Below, in pieces: positions 10,369 to 55,500 of a stretch of DNA of 64,000 nucleotides (position 1 is the first letter of the stretch; the number at the start of each line of letters is the position of its first letter). A program made the translations under genes and the position numbers. The notes under the pieces were generated by a model that ran no database searches, was not told the origin of the DNA, and was given only the letters and a program-made list of their open reading frames with translations. This DNA is from a virus (Duplodnaviria > Caudoviricetes): the IMG/VR virus record IMGVR_UViG_3300017911_000967, positions 1 through 64,000 of that record; one strand, written 5' to 3'.

Positions 10369-10403
10369 AAAGACGGGATGGGAAACCTACCCGTCTTTTT
10401 TTT
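10369..10403 (+). terminator. Rho-independent terminator
   Basis: AAAGACGGG...CCCGTCTTT plus T run. Confidence 0.75.
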
Positions 10404-13241: not shown

Positions 13242-13272
13242 AAGAAAAGGGGACCGAAGTCCCCTTTTTTTT
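13241..13272. terminator. bidirectional terminator between convergent units
   Basis: A-tract, GGGGACCGAAGTCCCC, T-tract; the same 16-mer recurs at 23139-23154. Confidence 0.85.
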
Positions 13273-23164: not shown

Positions 23165-24826
23165 TTATGAGGTACCTGCCGAGAACGGATCGACTGGAGT
23201 CAAACCACCAGTGACCATTGCATTAGAACCACCTATATTATTGGTAGTTGATGACGGTGCGACCACTGTTGTACCACCGCCGACCGCAGTTGTTTGTGCG
23301 AGTTGCGCTTGACCTTGGGCTAACTGGGATCCTCGTGTAGGTGGTATCGCAGACACACCCGATCCAGTAGATCCAGACGATGTCTTGATGTTCCCTACGG
23401 TCGCTTGTCCTTCCGCCCCTTTGACAAATTCTGAGATCTCATCCGGTGTCTCTGGTTTGCCCATAATCGCCTTTGCCAGTGCACCGGCGATTTGTTCACC
23501 GAAGAACGCACCACCAAAACCACCTAGTAGACCCCCGGCAACCGTTCCAACGCCTGGGAATATCATAGTACCTAGTGCACTACCCGCGATTGCACCAAGA
23601 GTACCACCACCTAGACCACCAAGCGCTTCTGCTACTTTTTGAGTTTTAACATCTGCTGGATCATCGCCTGCAACAATCGATGCAATGGTTCCCGCCGCAA
23701 GGAGTTGACCAAGGATAGGGATTCGTTTCCCTAGAGCGCCCAGTTTACCCATGATGAATGATCCAGTCTTGGATAGACCCTTCATCGGTTTGCTCTTACC
23801 CGCGAGTTTTGCGTCTGCCTTCGCCTGTTTGTTTGTGGTTGTCGTAGAGTCTCTACCTGTCACACCGCGCAGTCCCGCATCTGCCTTTGCAACAGACACC
23901 GCCTTACCTTTCAAGTCAGTGATCGCACCATCCGTACCGACTTTTAATCCGCGTTCTGCAAGACCCGCTAACTGTTTTTTGTTAAGGTTCTTCGCCATGT
24001 TAGTCTGGACTTGCTTAGCGTCCATACCAGATCGTTGAGGAACTGCACTCTTTGCCTTGTCCCCTTGAATCTTATTCATCAACCCCTTGCTTGCATTAGC
24101 GACCTTGTCTCTCATTGCGAAAAGACCTTTGTTGATGGTGCCGGTGAAGTTACGGAATGTTCCACCTAATACTGCGAGGGTGGTTCCTAGTTGCGGTACC
24201 GATTCTGTAAACGCATCCATGTCACCGTCAAGTACGGCGTTGATTGCGTCGAGGGTTCCGCCGAATCCCCTGTTCATGGTGTCAATGATTTCTTTACCAC
24301 TAGGGACTGCAAACTCGATTTTCTCGAACAGTGCTTTTGCACCCTCACCGATCTTGCCGACGATCTCGCCCGCCTTTGCGAAGTTCTCACCACTCGTAAA
24401 TGACGCGATTGCAGTACCAAACGCACCTGCAAGGAGACCACCACGTGCGAGACCTAACAGACCGGAACCCGGCCCCATACCCATCCCTTTACGCATCTTA
24501 CCGAACATGCCAGGCTTACCGGAACCATTTTTCGACGCTTCTTTCGCTTTCAGCGCAGCTTCACGCTTCCTTTCAGCCTCTTCGAGTTCCTTTCGGTTTA
24601 TCTCATCGATCGCGTCAACTTCTGATTGTTTCCTTGCCGCTTCTGCCGCTGCAGCAGCTTCTTGATCGCGTTTCGCCTGTTCCGCAGCGTTTTTCGCCAT
24701 CTCTGCAACGATCGCAGCGTTACTCGCAGCGAGTTGGTTCAGTATAGCAGTCTGTTCCGCCTGCGTTTTTTCTTGGTTCGCGTTCTGGGCGTTCAGAGTA
24801 TCGGTAACGTTGTCAAGTGTCGCCAT
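23165..24826 (-). CDS. tape-measure-like / baseplate hub protein (gp29 analogue)
   Basis: 553 aa; Ala/Gly-rich helical, coiled-coil N-terminus, Gly-zipper hydrophobic segments; follows gp26/gp51. Confidence 0.6.
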   Translation of the reverse strand: MATLDNVTDTLNAQNANQEKTQAEQTAILNQLAASNAAIVAEMAKNAAEQAKRDQEAAAAAEAARKQSEVDAIDEINRKELEEAERKREAALKAKEASKNGSGKPGMFGKMRKGMGMGPGSGLLGLARGGLLAGAFGTAIASFTSGENFAKAGEIVGKIGEGAKALFEKIEFAVPSGKEIIDTMNRGFGGTLDAINAVLDGDMDAFTESVPQLGTTLAVLGGTFRNFTGTINKGLFAMRDKVANASKGLMNKIQGDKAKSAVPQRSGMDAKQVQTNMAKNLNKKQLAGLAERGLKVGTDGAITDLKGKAVSVAKADAGLRGVTGRDSTTTTNKQAKADAKLAGKSKPMKGLSKTGSFIMGKLGALGKRIPILGQLLAAGTIASIVAGDDPADVKTQKVAEALGGLGGGTLGAIAGSALGTMIFPGVGTVAGGLLGGFGGAFFGEQIAGALAKAIMGKPETPDEISEFVKGAEGQATVGNIKTSSGSTGSGVSAIPPTRGSQLAQGQAQLAQTTAVGGGTTVVAPSSTTNNIGGSNAMVTGGLTPVDPFSAGTS

Positions 24827-24829
24827 GTT

Positions 24830-25018
24830 TTATCCTTGTTGTTTGGCTCGCTCTGCCTTCTCCTGTAAATCATCCACCAGCATCTGAAGGTATATCTCCC
24901 TCTCCCAAGGTATCATGCGTTCAACTTCGTCCAGTGAGTAGTTGAAGTTGTTAAGAAGTTGAAAATTGACCTGATAGTAGTTGATCAGGTTGTCATGAGA
25001 GAGGTTGATTAAAAAAAA
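24830..25018 (-). CDS. 51: gp51-like baseplate hub assembly protein; no initiation codon, probably expressed by -1 frameshift from gp26
   Basis: Manual translation FFLINLSHDNLINYYQVNFQLLNNFNYSLDEVERMIPWEREIYLQMLVDDLQEKAERAKQQG; YSL.E.E.MIPWEREIY motif. Confidence 0.75.
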   Translation of the reverse strand, partial: FFLINLSHDNLINYYQVNFQLLNNFNYSLDEVERMIPWEREIYLQMLVDDLQEKAERAKQQG

Positions 25019-25716
25019 TCATCAATACCGCGCAACTCATGGGTGTTCTTCTTCTTACATGATGTGCACTTGAAGGTGACATCCTGCTTAATCGCTGGTG
25101 CGGTGTTGACAAACTCTGACAATCGGTCGAACTGTTCTGAGGTCATTGACTCCAAGAACTCCATAACAGACTCTTTGGTCTCATCGACTAGATCAATCCT
25201 TTCGTCTTCGGTCAGTACCGCTTCCATGCAGATGATTAGTAGTTCCATCATCCTTTCTGTAACAGACTCACTCTCAACCAATACAGGGTTTGATAAGAAC
25301 TCCTCGTATGTCGGGTATCGCATCTTTACGGACACGGTGTCTGTCACTTCGATGGCAGAGTCTTGTATAGAACCCTCCATCACAATCCCGTCCAGATCCA
25401 CGGTGACTTCGTTGTCTGCACCGCAGTGAGTGCAGGAGATTACGAGGTCTGCGGTCTCACCGACCGACTTTGCACGAATCTTGGTGAACAGGTAATCCAC
25501 ATCAAATGTGGTCAGTTTACTGGTTACAGGTTCTTCCACACACGCGTGGATCGTTCGAACAATCGCACGGACGATGTCCGGTTTTTCCTGTGTCTCATAC
25601 GCTATCAGTAGCGCCTTTTGTTCCTTGACTAGGAAGGGACGAAATGTCGTTTCTTGCCCAGACGAAGGTATAGTCACCGAATAACTCGGCGAGTCATTTA
25701 GTTTTGGTAATGCCAT
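25009..25716 (-). CDS. 26: baseplate hub assembly protein gp26
   Basis: MALPKL..P.Y...IPS.G....FRPFLVKEQK.LL, FDVDYLF.KIRAKSVGE, two CxxC pairs, ends ..FF. Confidence 0.88.
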   Translation of the reverse strand: MALPKLNDSPSYSVTIPSSGQETTFRPFLVKEQKALLIAYETQEKPDIVRAIVRTIHACVEEPVTSKLTTFDVDYLFTKIRAKSVGETADLVISCTHCGADNEVTVDLDGIVMEGSIQDSAIEVTDTVSVKMRYPTYEEFLSNPVLVESESVTERMMELLIICMEAVLTEDERIDLVDETKESVMEFLESMTSEQFDRLSEFVNTAPAIKQDVTFKCTSCKKKNTHELRGIDDFF

Positions 25717-25731
25717 AATGTATCCTAATAA

Positions 25732-26379
25732 TTAAATAATTCCGCCCAGATTGATACCCACATTAGCATCAATCAGGTCCGCAAGTTTACCTCTCGCGTC
25801 TTTCTTCACCGTCCACTTGGTGTACGCAAAGTTCACCTGAAGTTCTACGATCGACCCTTGACTATTCAGACTGATCGCGTTTTGCGTTATTGGGAACGCA
25901 TCTTCTAATTGCACACTGTATATAGAGTTGCCCAATAAATCGAAATTTATGTCAAGTATCCCCAAATCAAATCCCACACGAGCCTGTGGTTTAGACAGTT
26001 GGTGAATTGTGATAGTCTTTGCAAATCCCCCTTCTTTACCGTCCCGTCCTTTCTTCCACTGTATATTTCCAGTCTCTTCGTCAAGCATGTCTGACATCCA
26101 CTTGTCGAAGTATTTTCTTGGACCATAGTCATTGGTCATGTAGAACGACATATTGAGATCTGACGTAGCGAAACCATTTACGACCTTTTCGCTTTGGATT
26201 CCGACGTTCCTATCCAAGGTCAGTATCTGTTTGCCGGGAATTTCCACATCTTTACACAAGACGTTTAAGGTGTCCCCGTTCATACCTGCCATTGGTGGTA
26301 GTTCTACTGCAAAATGATGCGAGAACGCAAAACCGTTCTTGAGACTCACCTTTGATTTTAGTTGTTCTATTCCTGCCAT
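25732..26379 (-). CDS. 54: tail-tube initiator gp54 (tube-fold protein)
   Basis: LC..VEIPG, F..W, L.DAFP, LQVNFAY pattern. Confidence 0.7.
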   Translation of the reverse strand: MAGIEQLKSKVSLKNGFAFSHHFAVELPPMAGMNGDTLNVLCKDVEIPGKQILTLDRNVGIQSEKVVNGFATSDLNMSFYMTNDYGPRKYFDKWMSDMLDEETGNIQWKKGRDGKEGGFAKTITIHQLSKPQARVGFDLGILDINFDLLGNSIYSVQLEDAFPITQNAISLNSQGSIVELQVNFAYTKWTVKKDARGKLADLIDANVGINLGGII

Positions 26380-27010: not shown

Positions 27011-27018
27011 TATTTATA
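27011..27018 (-). promoter_or_regulatory. late promoter for gp2
   Basis: TATAAATA on the - strand. Confidence 0.7.
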
Positions 27019-27532
27019 CACGTTTTTTGCGTTTCTTGAACGCAGGCATCTTTTTGAGGGGTTTCTTGGACTTGACGCGTTGCGCAGCCTTGGGCATGAT
27101 ACCCTTTGCGGTGAGTTCGTTCTCTGTCCAGATCTCGAAGTGGTACCCACGATCCTTGGCGTACTCGACCGCTGCCTTCCACTTGGACTGATTCTTGATG
27201 TAGGTGAGACCCTCAGTCATGAGTGTCTGTCGGGACTTTCCCTGTTTCTTCTCTGGTCTCTTAGTCTCCTTGGCGGGTTTGACCTCAACCAACACCACAC
27301 GACCGGACTTATATTTGATCACAAAGTCGACGAAGTATCGATGAGGTTTCTTGTCGGTCTCGCAGATGTAGGGTATGACCAACTCCTCAGAGACCCACTG
27401 GACCACGTCTGAGTTCTTGTCGCACCACATCATCACATACTTCTCCCACCCCGAGCGGTAGACGATCTCGTTCACGTCGCCTGCGTACTTCTGTGGTTTG
27501 GTGGGTTTGTACTTCCCCTTATACGTTTTCAT
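27014..27532 (-). CDS. 4: head completion nuclease gp4 (TnsA-like endonuclease fold)
   Basis: YKGKYKP..PQKY.GD...IVYRSGWE, HRYFVDF, VEVKP, N..KW.AA. Confidence 0.92.
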   Translation of the reverse strand: MKTYKGKYKPTKPQKYAGDVNEIVYRSGWEKYVMMWCDKNSDVVQWVSEELVIPYICETDKKPHRYFVDFVIKYKSGRVVLVEVKPAKETKRPEKKQGKSRQTLMTEGLTYIKNQSKWKAAVEYAKDRGYHFEIWTENELTAKGIMPKAAQRVKSKKPLKKMPAFKKRKKRV

Positions 27533-28112
27533 AACGTCTGAGTAGGACCATACAGTTGAGTCGGTCAGTAGAGGGGTAGTAGAACTCTCGCACCTTGCGG
27601 TATGGGAAGTCCTCTCTGGCCAGTTGGTTGTCGATGACTGACTTGGGATATAGGTCACCCATACATCGGACGTAGTCGTCCACCAACATCCACTCGACAC
27701 CCGCATCGGCACATAGGTCCATGTCCTGAATCATTCCTTTGGGTGTATGGTCCCCATCAATGAAAATCATATCATACCCAGACACGTCGTCGGGAATGAG
27801 TTGGTGTGAGTCGCACTGAGTGAACTGGAATCGACCCTTGAACTTTTCCTTCATCTTCCACGCATTGACCTCTGTATGTGGGTATTGTCCTATGTCTGTG
27901 GAGTGTATTCGGACATGGCGATCGACAGACAGGAACGTGTACGCACTGTGACCGAAGTTGAATCCGATCTCAAAGATGGTCTTGGTTTGCGTCATAGATA
28001 GTATACTCGCAAACGCCAGACACGTCTTGTTGTCAGGCAGGACGTGACCCTCTATGGTCTCCCATCCCTCAGTCAGGAATTTAGTCTCTTCTACTAGGTT
28101 CATCGATTTCAT
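27519..28112 (-). CDS. class I SAM-dependent methyltransferase (Methyltransf_24-like)
   Basis: EIGFNFGHSA, DMIFIDGDH, LVDDY. Confidence 0.82.
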   Translation of the reverse strand: MKSMNLVEETKFLTEGWETIEGHVLPDNKTCLAFASILSMTQTKTIFEIGFNFGHSAYTFLSVDRHVRIHSTDIGQYPHTEVNAWKMKEKFKGRFQFTQCDSHQLIPDDVSGYDMIFIDGDHTPKGMIQDMDLCADAGVEWMLVDDYVRCMGDLYPKSVIDNQLAREDFPYRKVREFYYPSTDRLNCMVLLRRYENV

Positions 28113-55458: not shown

Positions 55459-55500
55459 GTGCGGTTACTTCGGTTCCCGCATTTTTTTTTCTTATAAATA
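55459..55500 (+). promoter_or_regulatory. terminator hairpin followed by late promoter
   Basis: GTGCGG..TTCG..CCGCAT plus T9; TATAAATA at 55493-55500. Confidence 0.7.

What the first reader, a model, noticed from the sequence alone, without database searches (positions are those of the whole stretch)
24830..25030. Probable programmed -1 frameshift fusing gp26 to gp51 upstream of the tape-measure gene (lambda G/GT-like)
Seen (minus strand): gp26 ends GAT TTT TTT TAA, a U8 run at 25018-25011 containing the slippery heptamer U UUU UUU. The -1 frame is closed by TGA TGA immediately before the run. It then reads FFLINLSHDNLINYYQVNF...MIPWEREIY...QQG* to 24830, a complete gp51-like sequence with no ATG/GTG/TTG in its first 34 codons. 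A 7-bp hairpin (ACCTGAT/ATCAGGT, 24969-24990) lies 20 nt downstream. Gene order is tube-fold gp54, gp26, gp51, tape-measure-like. Established: lambda G/GT, P2 E/E' and Mu use a frameshift to make two tail chaperones just upstream of the tape measure gene; I do not know this as a described feature of T4-like phages. Inference: a 235-aa gp26 and a ~295-aa gp26-gp51 fusion are the T4-like equivalents of G and GT.
Basis: partly seen in the sequence, partly recalled or inferred. Interest (0 to 1): 0.82.

Follow-up and report, generated by a model that had tools for sequence, protein, structure and literature searches.

The report
Frameshift joining phage gp26 and gp51
This marine T4-like phage very probably makes a short and a long form of one tail-assembly chaperone by a programmed backward slip on a run of U; the arrangement is real and conserved, but a 2022 paper appears to have described it already for T4-like phages.

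Summary
On the minus strand a 235-aa gp26-family gene ends GAT TTT TTT TAA, and a 60-codon gp51-like frame opens in -1 exactly at the T run, with no start codon for 32 codons.

- **Conservation.** About 240 independent phage contigs keep an in-phase T_TTT_TTN heptamer and the -1 tail. So do S-PM2, HTVC008M and KVP40-, Aeromonas-, Rhizobium- and Stenotrophomonas-type phages.
- **T4.** T4 has two paralogous genes instead: gp26 is the short form, gp51 is the same domain plus the tail.
- **Fold.** The gp26 N-terminus models as a tail-assembly-chaperone fold (HK97 TAC, YqbN).
- **New here.** A 9-bp helix starts 7 nt after the heptamer (CCUCUCUCA with UGGGAGAGG, 88 nt apart). Synonymous-site covariation supports it after phylogenetic control. 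This favours ribosomal -1 frameshifting; transcriptional slippage on U8 is not excluded.
- **Novelty.** Low. [quoted passage not shown] This scan has also met the same site on more than a dozen other genomes. Public records still annotate gp51 as a separate small ORF.

The parts
25009..25716 (-). gp26-family gene: the short form of the tail assembly chaperone (TAC-N), 235 aa
   Evidence: PF12322 E 8e-54 and phrog_150 E 5e-57. AlphaFold model pLDDT 88.9. Residues 1-95 match the TAC folds 3fgx Z 8.2, YqbN 3klu Z 6.8 and HK97 TAC 2ob9 Z 6.7.
25012..25018 (-). slippery heptamer U_UUU_UUU, in phase (0-frame codons GAU UUU UUU); part of the T8 run 25011-25018
   Evidence: An in-phase T_TTT_TTN is present in 81 of 81 close loci and in all 89 cyanophage- or pelagiphage-type loci where the junction was found. 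The codon before it is GAT 78, AAT 2, GAC 0.
25009..25011 (-). 0-frame stop codon TAA directly after the heptamer
   Evidence: The stop lies 0 or 1 codon after the heptamer in 78 of 81 loci.
24996..25004 (-). 5' arm CCUCUCUCA of a conserved long-range helix, 7 nt after the heptamer
   Evidence: RNAalifold consensus. 97.9% of cells paired. Spacer is 7 nt in 105 of 105 distinct rows. Rare codons are used here (CTC is 4% of Leu codons in the gene body).
24899..24907 (-). 3' arm UGGGAGAGG of the helix (Trp-Glu-Arg codons of the PWERE motif)
   Evidence: Covariation at two synonymous sites. Each column is the other's best partner by mutual information among 152 columns. Independent contrasts go the same way about 12 times and the other way 0 times; non-partner controls show nothing. 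Pair probability 0.98 in the window.
   Evidence: Present in the window's MFE fold, but only 58% of cells are paired across 52 relatives.
24830..25012 (-). -1 frame extension: 60 codons plus stop, the gp51-like C-terminal tail of the long form (TAC-NC, about 295 aa)
   Evidence: phrog_634 E 8e-22 and phrog_150 positions 235-281. 39% identity to T4 gp51 residues 207-249, E 2e-9. Codon periodicity 0.78/0.52/1.39. No stop in 103 of 103 relatives in this frame, stops in all of them in the other two frames. Three-helix model, pLDDT 82.
23165..24826 (-). tape-measure-like gene (553 aa), directly downstream
   Evidence: phrog_794 and phrog_23574 tail length tape measure, E 3e-7.
25732..26379 (-). tail-tube-fold gene (gp54/gp19-like), directly upstream
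   Evidence: phrog_45 tail tube, E 1e-29.

Best explanation
One gene makes two tail assembly chaperones. Most ribosomes end at TAA and give the 235-aa gp26-type protein. A minority slip back one base on U_UUU_UUU (tandem P- and A-site re-pairing, Phe-Phe kept) and go on for 60 codons. That gives a protein of about 295 aa with the gp51-type three-helix tail, just upstream of the tape measure gene. The slip is probably helped by the stop codon directly after the heptamer and by a 9-bp helix that starts 7 nt downstream and closes an 88-nt loop.

Shown here: the heptamer, the frame relation, coding selection on the tail, the helix covariation, homology to T4 gp26 and gp51, and the chaperone fold of the N-terminus.

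Inferred: that the slip happens at all, its rate, that the helix stimulates it, and the division of labour (body on the tape measure, tail recruiting tube or hub proteins) by analogy with lambda G/GT.
For: - **Heptamer.** It is in phase in every relative sampled: 81 of 81 close loci (73 TTTTTTT, 6 TTTTTTC, 2 TTTTTTA), 89 further loci (81 TTTTTTC), and six cultured phages of five other lineages.
- **Synonymous constraint.** The codon before the Phe pair is GAT 78, GAC 0. The Asp codon one step upstream is GAT 22, GAC 14, and gene bodies have GAT 810, GAC 311.
- **No conserved start codon** in the tail.
- **Coding selection** on the tail in the -1 frame only.
- **Helix.** 97.9% of cells paired. 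Each column is the other's best partner by mutual information. Internal pair C-G 78, U-A 20, U-G 7, C.A 0. Independent contrasts 6.0/0 and 5.8/0, with null non-partner controls. Rare codons are selected in both arms.
- **T6 relatives.** 20 of 105 clade members carry T_TTT_TTC and keep the helix.
- **T4.** gp51 is PF12322 plus this tail in one frame; gp26 is PF12322 alone and ends EFF with the non-slippery codons GAG TTC TTT.
- **Gene count.** Genomes with the slip site hold one PF12322 gene, T4 holds two.
- **Fold.** Chaperone-fold matches for residues 1-95.
Against: - No protein or ribosome data exist for this uncultured phage.
- A 9-bp helix across an 88-nt loop is an unusual stimulator, and its effect is untested.
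- The helix is not kept outside this clade. HTVC008M and the S-PM2-type phages lack it; some subclades have local hairpins instead.
- A U8 run is long enough for some RNA-polymerase slippage, which would give the identical protein.
- Each covariation test alone reaches only p about 0.03.
Confidence: 0.75

Rival explanations
1. Transcriptional slippage: RNA polymerase adds one U on the U8 run, and the U9 transcripts are read through conventionally into the same 295-aa protein. No ribosomal slip is needed.
For: - The window and 73 of 81 close relatives have T7 to T9 runs.
- The product would be identical.
- The title of Vladimirov et al. 2022 points to a non-translational mechanism for T4-like phages (cited in PMC10885494).
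Against: - The invariant feature is the in-phase heptamer, not run length. T6 forms (T_TTT_TTC or T_TTT_TTA) occur in 20 of 105 clade members and in 81 of 89 cyanophage-type loci, and are poor substrates for slippage (own knowledge).
- A covarying helix at the canonical 7-nt spacing has no role in this model.
- Contigs of three RNA libraries carry T8, so U9 is not the major form. Contigs cannot show a minor form, and RNA libraries may contain DNA.
Confidence: 0.15
2. Two separate proteins: the gp51-like frame is translated on its own, from the internal ATG at 24916..24914 or a non-canonical start, as public annotations assume. No fusion is made.
For: - GenBank records annotate a separate small gp51 (34 to 59 aa).
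- In S-PM2, Rhizobium Y68, Stenotrophomonas Yut3 and Vibrio PG216 an ATG lies close to the gp26 stop codon: it overlaps the stop (TGATG or TAATG) in Y68, Yut3 and PG216, and starts 3 nt after the stop in S-PM2. Re-initiation is therefore possible there.
Against: - In the window the first 32 codons of the tail have no ATG, GTG or TTG, yet they are conserved as protein in the -1 frame.
- The position of the first start codon varies freely among relatives.
- The -1 frame is closed by stops just upstream of the run.
- In T4 the same tail is covalently joined to the PF12322 domain.
- The heptamer is kept even where an ATG exists.
Confidence: 0.05
3. Artefact: a homopolymer sequencing error split one continuous gene (true T9) into two frames.
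For: Homopolymer runs are error-prone.
Against: About 240 contigs from many samples have the same frame relation, and none shows a continuous frame. An independent DNA run and three RNA-library assemblies show no indel at the run. T6C variants give the same -1 relation.
Confidence: 0.01

Closest known systems
[quoted passage not shown]
   Same: The gene family appears to be the same and the idea is the same. PMC12846349 says the paper describes a short TAC-N and a long TAC-NC form and poly-T slippery sequences in the TAC-N genes of T4-like phages. PMC10885494 says some T4-like phages instead carry one short gene and one long fused gene. I inferred from my own T4 comparison that these genes are 26 and 51; neither citing passage names them.
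   Different: I could not read the paper. I therefore cannot say whether it covers this marine clade, whether it reports the 9-bp long-range helix, or exactly which mechanism it favours. The helix covariation found here argues for ordinary ribosomal frameshifting in this clade.
Phage T4 gp26 (208 aa) and gp51 (249 aa), hub assembly chaperones (Leiman et al. 2010, PMC3004832, table 2)
   Same: The short product corresponds to gp26 (PF12322 only). The long product corresponds to gp51 (PF12322 plus a C-tail that aligns with the window's -1 tail at 39% identity, E 2e-9).
   Different: T4 encodes the two forms as two divergently transcribed paralogous genes. Its gp26 ends EFF with non-slippery codons. 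Here there is one gene with a slip site.
Lambda G / G-T and the conserved -1 frameshift of tail assembly genes (Levin et al. 1993; Xu, Hendrix, Duda 2004; own knowledge, cited in PMC12859696)
   Same: Two overlapping frames lie between the tube and tape-measure genes. There is an in-phase X_XXY_YYZ heptamer near the end of the first frame. The second frame has no start of its own. The N-domain has a chaperone fold.
   Different: There is no sequence similarity to gpG. gp26 carries an extra domain of about 140 aa with a four-Cys zinc ribbon. The stop codon directly abuts the heptamer. A long-range helix is conserved downstream; lambda is reported to need no downstream structure (own knowledge).
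HK97 tail assembly chaperone (PDB 2ob9), B. subtilis YqbN (3klu), 3fgx
   Same: gp26 residues 1-95 superpose on them with Z 6.7 to 8.2 over 83-86 residues. They are the top three of 48,161 chains.
   Different: Sequence identity is 7-14%. The Z values are moderate. No match is found by sequence profile.
E. coli dnaX -1 frameshift (A_AAA_AAG with a downstream stem-loop; own knowledge)
   Same: A bacterial-type tandem slip on a homopolymeric heptamer, with a downstream helix a few nucleotides away.
   Different: The dnaX stem-loop is local, whereas here the helix closes 88 nt. The role of an upstream Shine-Dalgarno-like element was not tested here.

Membership tests
Tail assembly chaperone pair made by programmed -1 frameshift (lambda G/GT type) | Two overlapping frames placed between the tail tube gene and the tape measure gene | tested here: met
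   phrog_45 tube, PF12322 gene, -1 tail, phrog_794 tape measure, all on the minus strand.
Tail assembly chaperone pair made by programmed -1 frameshift (lambda G/GT type) | In-phase X_XXY_YYZ slippery heptamer near the end of the first frame, conserved among relatives | tested here: met
   T_TTT_TTN is present in all 81 close loci and 89 further loci, and in six cultured phages of other lineages. There is synonymous constraint on the preceding codon (GAT 78, GAC 0).
Tail assembly chaperone pair made by programmed -1 frameshift (lambda G/GT type) | The second frame is coding but lacks its own conserved start | tested here: met
   Codon periodicity is seen only in the -1 frame. 0 of 103 relatives have a stop in that frame. 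The position of the first start codon varies, and in the window it is the 33rd codon after the slip.
Tail assembly chaperone pair made by programmed -1 frameshift (lambda G/GT type) | Chaperone (TAC) fold of the shared N-terminal domain | tested here: met
   The top three structural matches are 3fgx (Z 8.2), YqbN (Z 6.8) and HK97 TAC (Z 6.7), over 83-86 residues. Unrelated chains score Z 5.0 or less. The Z values are moderate and no match is found by sequence.
Tail assembly chaperone pair made by programmed -1 frameshift (lambda G/GT type) | Both products are made in a fixed ratio; the short form binds the tape measure and the long form recruits the tube protein | not testable with these tools
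   Needs proteomics, a reporter assay and binding assays.
Pfam PF12322 T4_baseplate (gp26/gp51) | Match above the curated cut-off over the whole domain | tested here: met
   183 bits against a cut-off of 24.5, profile positions 2-218 of 219.
T4 gp51-type long form | C-terminal tail homologous to gp51 residues 207-249, joined to the PF12322 domain | tested here: met
   phrog_634 E 8e-22. BLASTP against T4 gp51 E 2e-9. The join itself depends on the slip, which is inferred.
-1 frameshift stimulatory RNA structure | A helix starting 5-9 nt after the heptamer, supported by covariation | tested here: met
   The spacer is 7 nt in 105 of 105 rows. Two pairs covary at synonymous sites, with phylogenetic and non-partner controls. 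Its stimulatory effect was not tested.
Programmed transcriptional slippage (Thermus dnaX, Shigella mxiE type) | A long homopolymer (about 9 or more) is the conserved element, and transcripts are heterogeneous in length | tested here: inconclusive
   T8 here, but T6 in 20 of 105 clade members and in most cyanophage relatives. RNA-library contigs show T8 as the major form, but contigs cannot show minor forms.

The most novel reading that the evidence does not exclude
In this marine clade the gp26/gp51 recoding site is a complete ribosomal -1 frameshift cassette. Its stimulator is an unusual long-range 9-bp helix between the Asn-Leu-Ser-His codons, 7 nt after the heptamer, and the Trp-Glu-Arg codons 88 nt further on. 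The helix is held in place by selection on rare synonymous codons. Sister clades have swapped it for local hairpins. If the 2022 paper argues for a non-translational mechanism and does not report this helix, this would be new evidence on how T4-like phages set the ratio of their two tail chaperones.
Probability: 0.4. Interest if true: 0.5.

Novelty: new member of a known kind. Interest (0 to 1): 0.3.

Why it matters
- **T4 no longer stands apart.** T4 was long quoted as the long-tailed phage without the G/GT-type frameshift. The wider T4 superfamily has it, and T4 itself replaced it with two paralogous genes. This gives gp26 and gp51, the old 'hub assembly catalysts', a concrete role. That point is already in the literature.
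- **Annotation.** Public records of cyanophages, pelagiphages and vibriophages still annotate gp51 as a free 34-59-aa ORF, or as hypothetical, and carry no ribosomal-slippage join.
- **Mechanism.** The covarying helix gives a testable handle for telling ribosomal from transcriptional slippage.

Tried and rejected
- **The 2022 paper.** It is not held under its PubMed id or DOI. Six citing papers were read; only two say anything about its content.
- **Other literature searches.** Searches for gp26 and gp51 with frameshift found only unrelated phages that share the gene numbers.
Rejected as a conserved element.
- **GC-content drift** as the cause of the covariation. Rejected: local GC is the same in both states, and non-partner controls are null.
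- **One consensus structure for the S-PM2-type clade.** None was found; only subclade-specific hairpins appear.
- **HTVC008M.** My first guess that it keeps the long-range helix was wrong: its 3' arm reads TATGAGCGT, 5 of 9 paired.
- **Databases.** No Rfam family matches. The sequence profile finds no PDB relative. Foldseek alone gave nothing below E 0.001. The tail has no Pfam family; its weak Stealth_CR2 hits are far below the cut-off.
- **Sequencing runs.** All are kept as contigs, so minor U9 transcripts could not be measured.
- **Long form.** It could not be modelled as one chain, because a -1 join cannot be given by reference.
- **Upstream element.** A Shine-Dalgarno-like element (AAGGA or GAGGG in many relatives, weak in the window) was seen but not tested.

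Full report
**Observation**

On the minus strand the ORF 25716..25009 encodes a 235-aa protein that ends GAT GAT TTT TTT TAA. The T8 run is 25018..25011.
- The -1 frame has TGA TGA just before the run and then stays open for 60 codons to TAA at 24832..24830.
- Its first ATG/GTG/TTG is the ATG at 24916..24914, the 33rd codon after the slip.
- T8 runs are not rare here: 5 in the window against 3.4 expected. The run alone therefore means little.

**What the genes are**

- The 235-aa protein is a full PF12322 (T4_baseplate, gp26/gp51) domain, E 8e-54, and matches phrog_150.
- The -1 tail matches phrog_634 ('hub assembly catalyst', gp51), E 8e-22. It also matches positions 235-281 of phrog_150, so some family members carry this tail in one frame.
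- Upstream lies a tube-fold gene (phrog_45).
- Downstream, starting 3 nt after the tail's stop, lies a 553-aa tape-measure-like gene (phrog_794).
- The record is a 96.9-kb fragment of a marine T4-like phage and holds a single PF12322 gene. The nearest named relative is phage C48C1, Kyanoviridae.

**Not an error**

A DNA run from another study and contigs from three metatranscriptome libraries (two studies) cross the run without an indel. All of them are about 95% identical strains.

**Conservation of the slip site**

In 80 IMG/VR contigs with 41-97% gp26 identity, every locus has an in-phase T_TTT_TTN: 73 TTTTTTT, 6 TTTTTTC, 2 TTTTTTA, counting the window.
- The tail is always in the -1 frame.
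- The 0-frame stop follows 0-1 codons later in 78 of 81.
- The codon before the Phe pair is GAT 78, AAT 2, GAC 0. The Asp codon one step upstream is GAT 22, GAC 14, and gene bodies have GAT 810, GAC 311. This is selection on the nucleotide, not on the residue.
- The first start codon in the tail sits at many different places.
- Across 103 distinct sequences the tail shows codon periodicity only in the -1 frame (entropy 0.78/0.52/1.39). None has a stop in that frame, and all have stops in the other two.
- Another 89 loci around S-PM2 and HTVC008M carry the heptamer, 81 of them as TTTTTTC.
- S-PM2, HTVC008M, Rhizobium Y68, Stenotrophomonas Yut3, Vibrio PG216 (KVP40-like) and Aeromonas AsFcp_4 all have T_TTT_TTN with the tail in -1.
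- In Y68, Yut3 and PG216 an ATG overlaps the stop; in S-PM2 an ATG starts 3 nt after the stop. This explains why gp51 is annotated there as its own gene.
- No record examined annotates a join.

**Relation to T4**

T4 genes 26 and 51 are divergently transcribed.
- gp26 (208 aa) is PF12322 alone.
- gp51 (249 aa) is PF12322 residues 1-201 plus a tail that matches phrog_634 and the end of phrog_150.
- The window's -1 tail aligns with gp51 residues 207-249 at 39% identity, E 2e-9.
- T4 gp26 still ends EFF, but with the non-slippery codons GAG TTC TTT.
- Complete genomes with the slip site (C48C1, S-PM2, HTVC008M, PG216) hold one PF12322 gene; T4 holds two.

One gene plus a slip site therefore does what T4 does with two genes.

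**Chaperone fold**

A model of the 235-aa protein (pLDDT 88.9) was compared with 48,161 PDB chains.
- The top three matches, all to residues 1-95, are 3fgx (Z 8.2), YqbN 3klu (Z 6.8) and the HK97 tail assembly chaperone 2ob9 (Z 6.7).
- A Vibrio PICI-like-element protein of unknown function (5ir0) follows at Z 5.0. All other chains score 4.4 or less.
- The Z values are moderate and there is no match by sequence.
- The rest of the protein is a helix and beta domain with four Cys.
- The tail models as three helices (pLDDT 82).

**Downstream RNA**

RNAalifold instead finds a 9-bp helix between CCUCUCUCA (25004..24996, 7 nt after the heptamer) and UGGGAGAGG (24907..24899, the Trp-Glu-Arg codons of PWERE). 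It is paired in 97.9% of cells against 46-79% for slid controls.
- Two pairs vary, both at synonymous third positions: Asn AAC/AAT with Arg AGG/AGA, and Leu CTC/CTT with Glu GAG/GAA.
- Each column is the other's best partner by mutual information among 152 columns (0.565 against 0.243 for the next; 0.391 against 0.169). Local GC content does not differ between the states.
- With more contigs there are 105 distinct rows. The spacer is always 7 nt and the loop always 88 nt.
- The internal pair is C-G 78, U-A 20, U-G 7, C.A 0. The terminal pair is C-G 64, U-A 30, C.A 11.
- On a gp26 tree, phylogenetically independent contrasts go the same way 6.0 to 0 (of 8) and 5.8 to 0 (of 9), each p about 0.03. 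Non-partner columns show no association.
- The arms use rare codons. CTC is 4% of Leu codons in the gene bodies, AGG 12.5% of Arg and GAG 25% of Glu. Yet in the arms CTC is used in 78 of 105 rows, AGG in 64 and GAG in 85, and no CGN Arg codon appears.
- Predicted pair probability has a median of 0.97 and is 0.98 in the window; the window's MFE and centroid folds both contain the helix.
- Outside the clade the helix is absent (HTVC008M, S-PM2 type). Some subclades have local hairpins 9-10 nt after the heptamer instead.
- No Rfam family matches.

**Mechanism**

A ribosomal -1 slip is favoured by four things: an in-phase tandem-slip heptamer, a stop codon abutting it, a covarying helix at the canonical spacing, and relatives with only T6. 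RNA-polymerase slippage on U8 would give the same protein and cannot be excluded. The RNA-library contigs only show that U9 is not the major form.

**Literature and earlier scan notes**

- It is not held here.
- PMC10885494 summarises it as showing that some T4-like phages carry a short gene and a long fused gene instead of frameshifting.
- PMC12846349 cites it for the TAC-N and TAC-NC forms and for poly-T slippery sequences in the TAC-N genes of T4-like phages.
- Leiman et al. 2010 list gp26 and gp51 as hub assembly chaperones.
- This scan has reported the same site on well over a dozen other genomes. One follow-up already noted the 2022 paper, and several others said they found no paper.

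**Verdict**

The helix is the only part that may be new.

Noticed in passing
L121:1296-1445 (S-PM2) and relatives L101-L120: S-PM2-type cyanophages have a local hairpin after their T_TTT_TTC heptamer: GUUCUAUAAU... pairs with ...AUUAUAGAAC (Phe-Tyr-Asn codons against Tyr-Tyr-Arg-Thr codons), up to 14 bp in S-PM2. A second subclade (xATGGCTCA) has AUGGCUCA/UGAGUCAU. The stimulator seems to have been replaced several times.
   Followed up: partly
L082:3803-4429 (T4 gene 26): T4 gp26 keeps the C-terminal Glu-Phe-Phe motif of the family but encodes it as GAG TTC TTT. These codons are not slippery, which fits loss of the slip after gene duplication.
   Followed up: partly
window 24539-24674 (tape-measure-like gene, N-terminal part): Strains in other sequencing runs differ here by small indels and by a 79-nt block of equal length but diverged sequence. 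The neighbouring gp26/gp51 region differs only by point changes.
   Followed up: no
window 27014-27712 and 27519-28112, minus strand: The listed 232-aa ORF matches head closure gp4 (phrog_218) only over residues 62-204, and it overlaps the 3' end of a 197-aa ORF of unknown family. The true gp4 start is probably the internal ATG (MKTYKGKY...).
   Followed up: no
window 10396-10403, 13265-13272, 55482-55490, plus strand: Three other T8 or T9 runs. I did not check whether any lies at the end of a gene with an open -1 frame.
   Followed up: no
L001 4783-4887 (C48C1); L084 2253-2390 (HTVC008M); L263 1362-1499 (S-RIM8): Public records annotate gp51 as a free ORF of 34-45 aa starting at an internal ATG. 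This leaves roughly 50-75 nt of conserved coding sequence unannotated between gp26 and gp51.
   Followed up: yes
A1 columns 1-9; window 25019-25033: Many relatives have a purine-rich, Shine-Dalgarno-like stretch (AAAGGA, GAGGGT, CAAGGA) 8-9 nt before the heptamer, formed by the Lys/Glu-Gly codons. It is weak in the window (GCGCGGT). A possible upstream stimulator, not tested.
   Followed up: no
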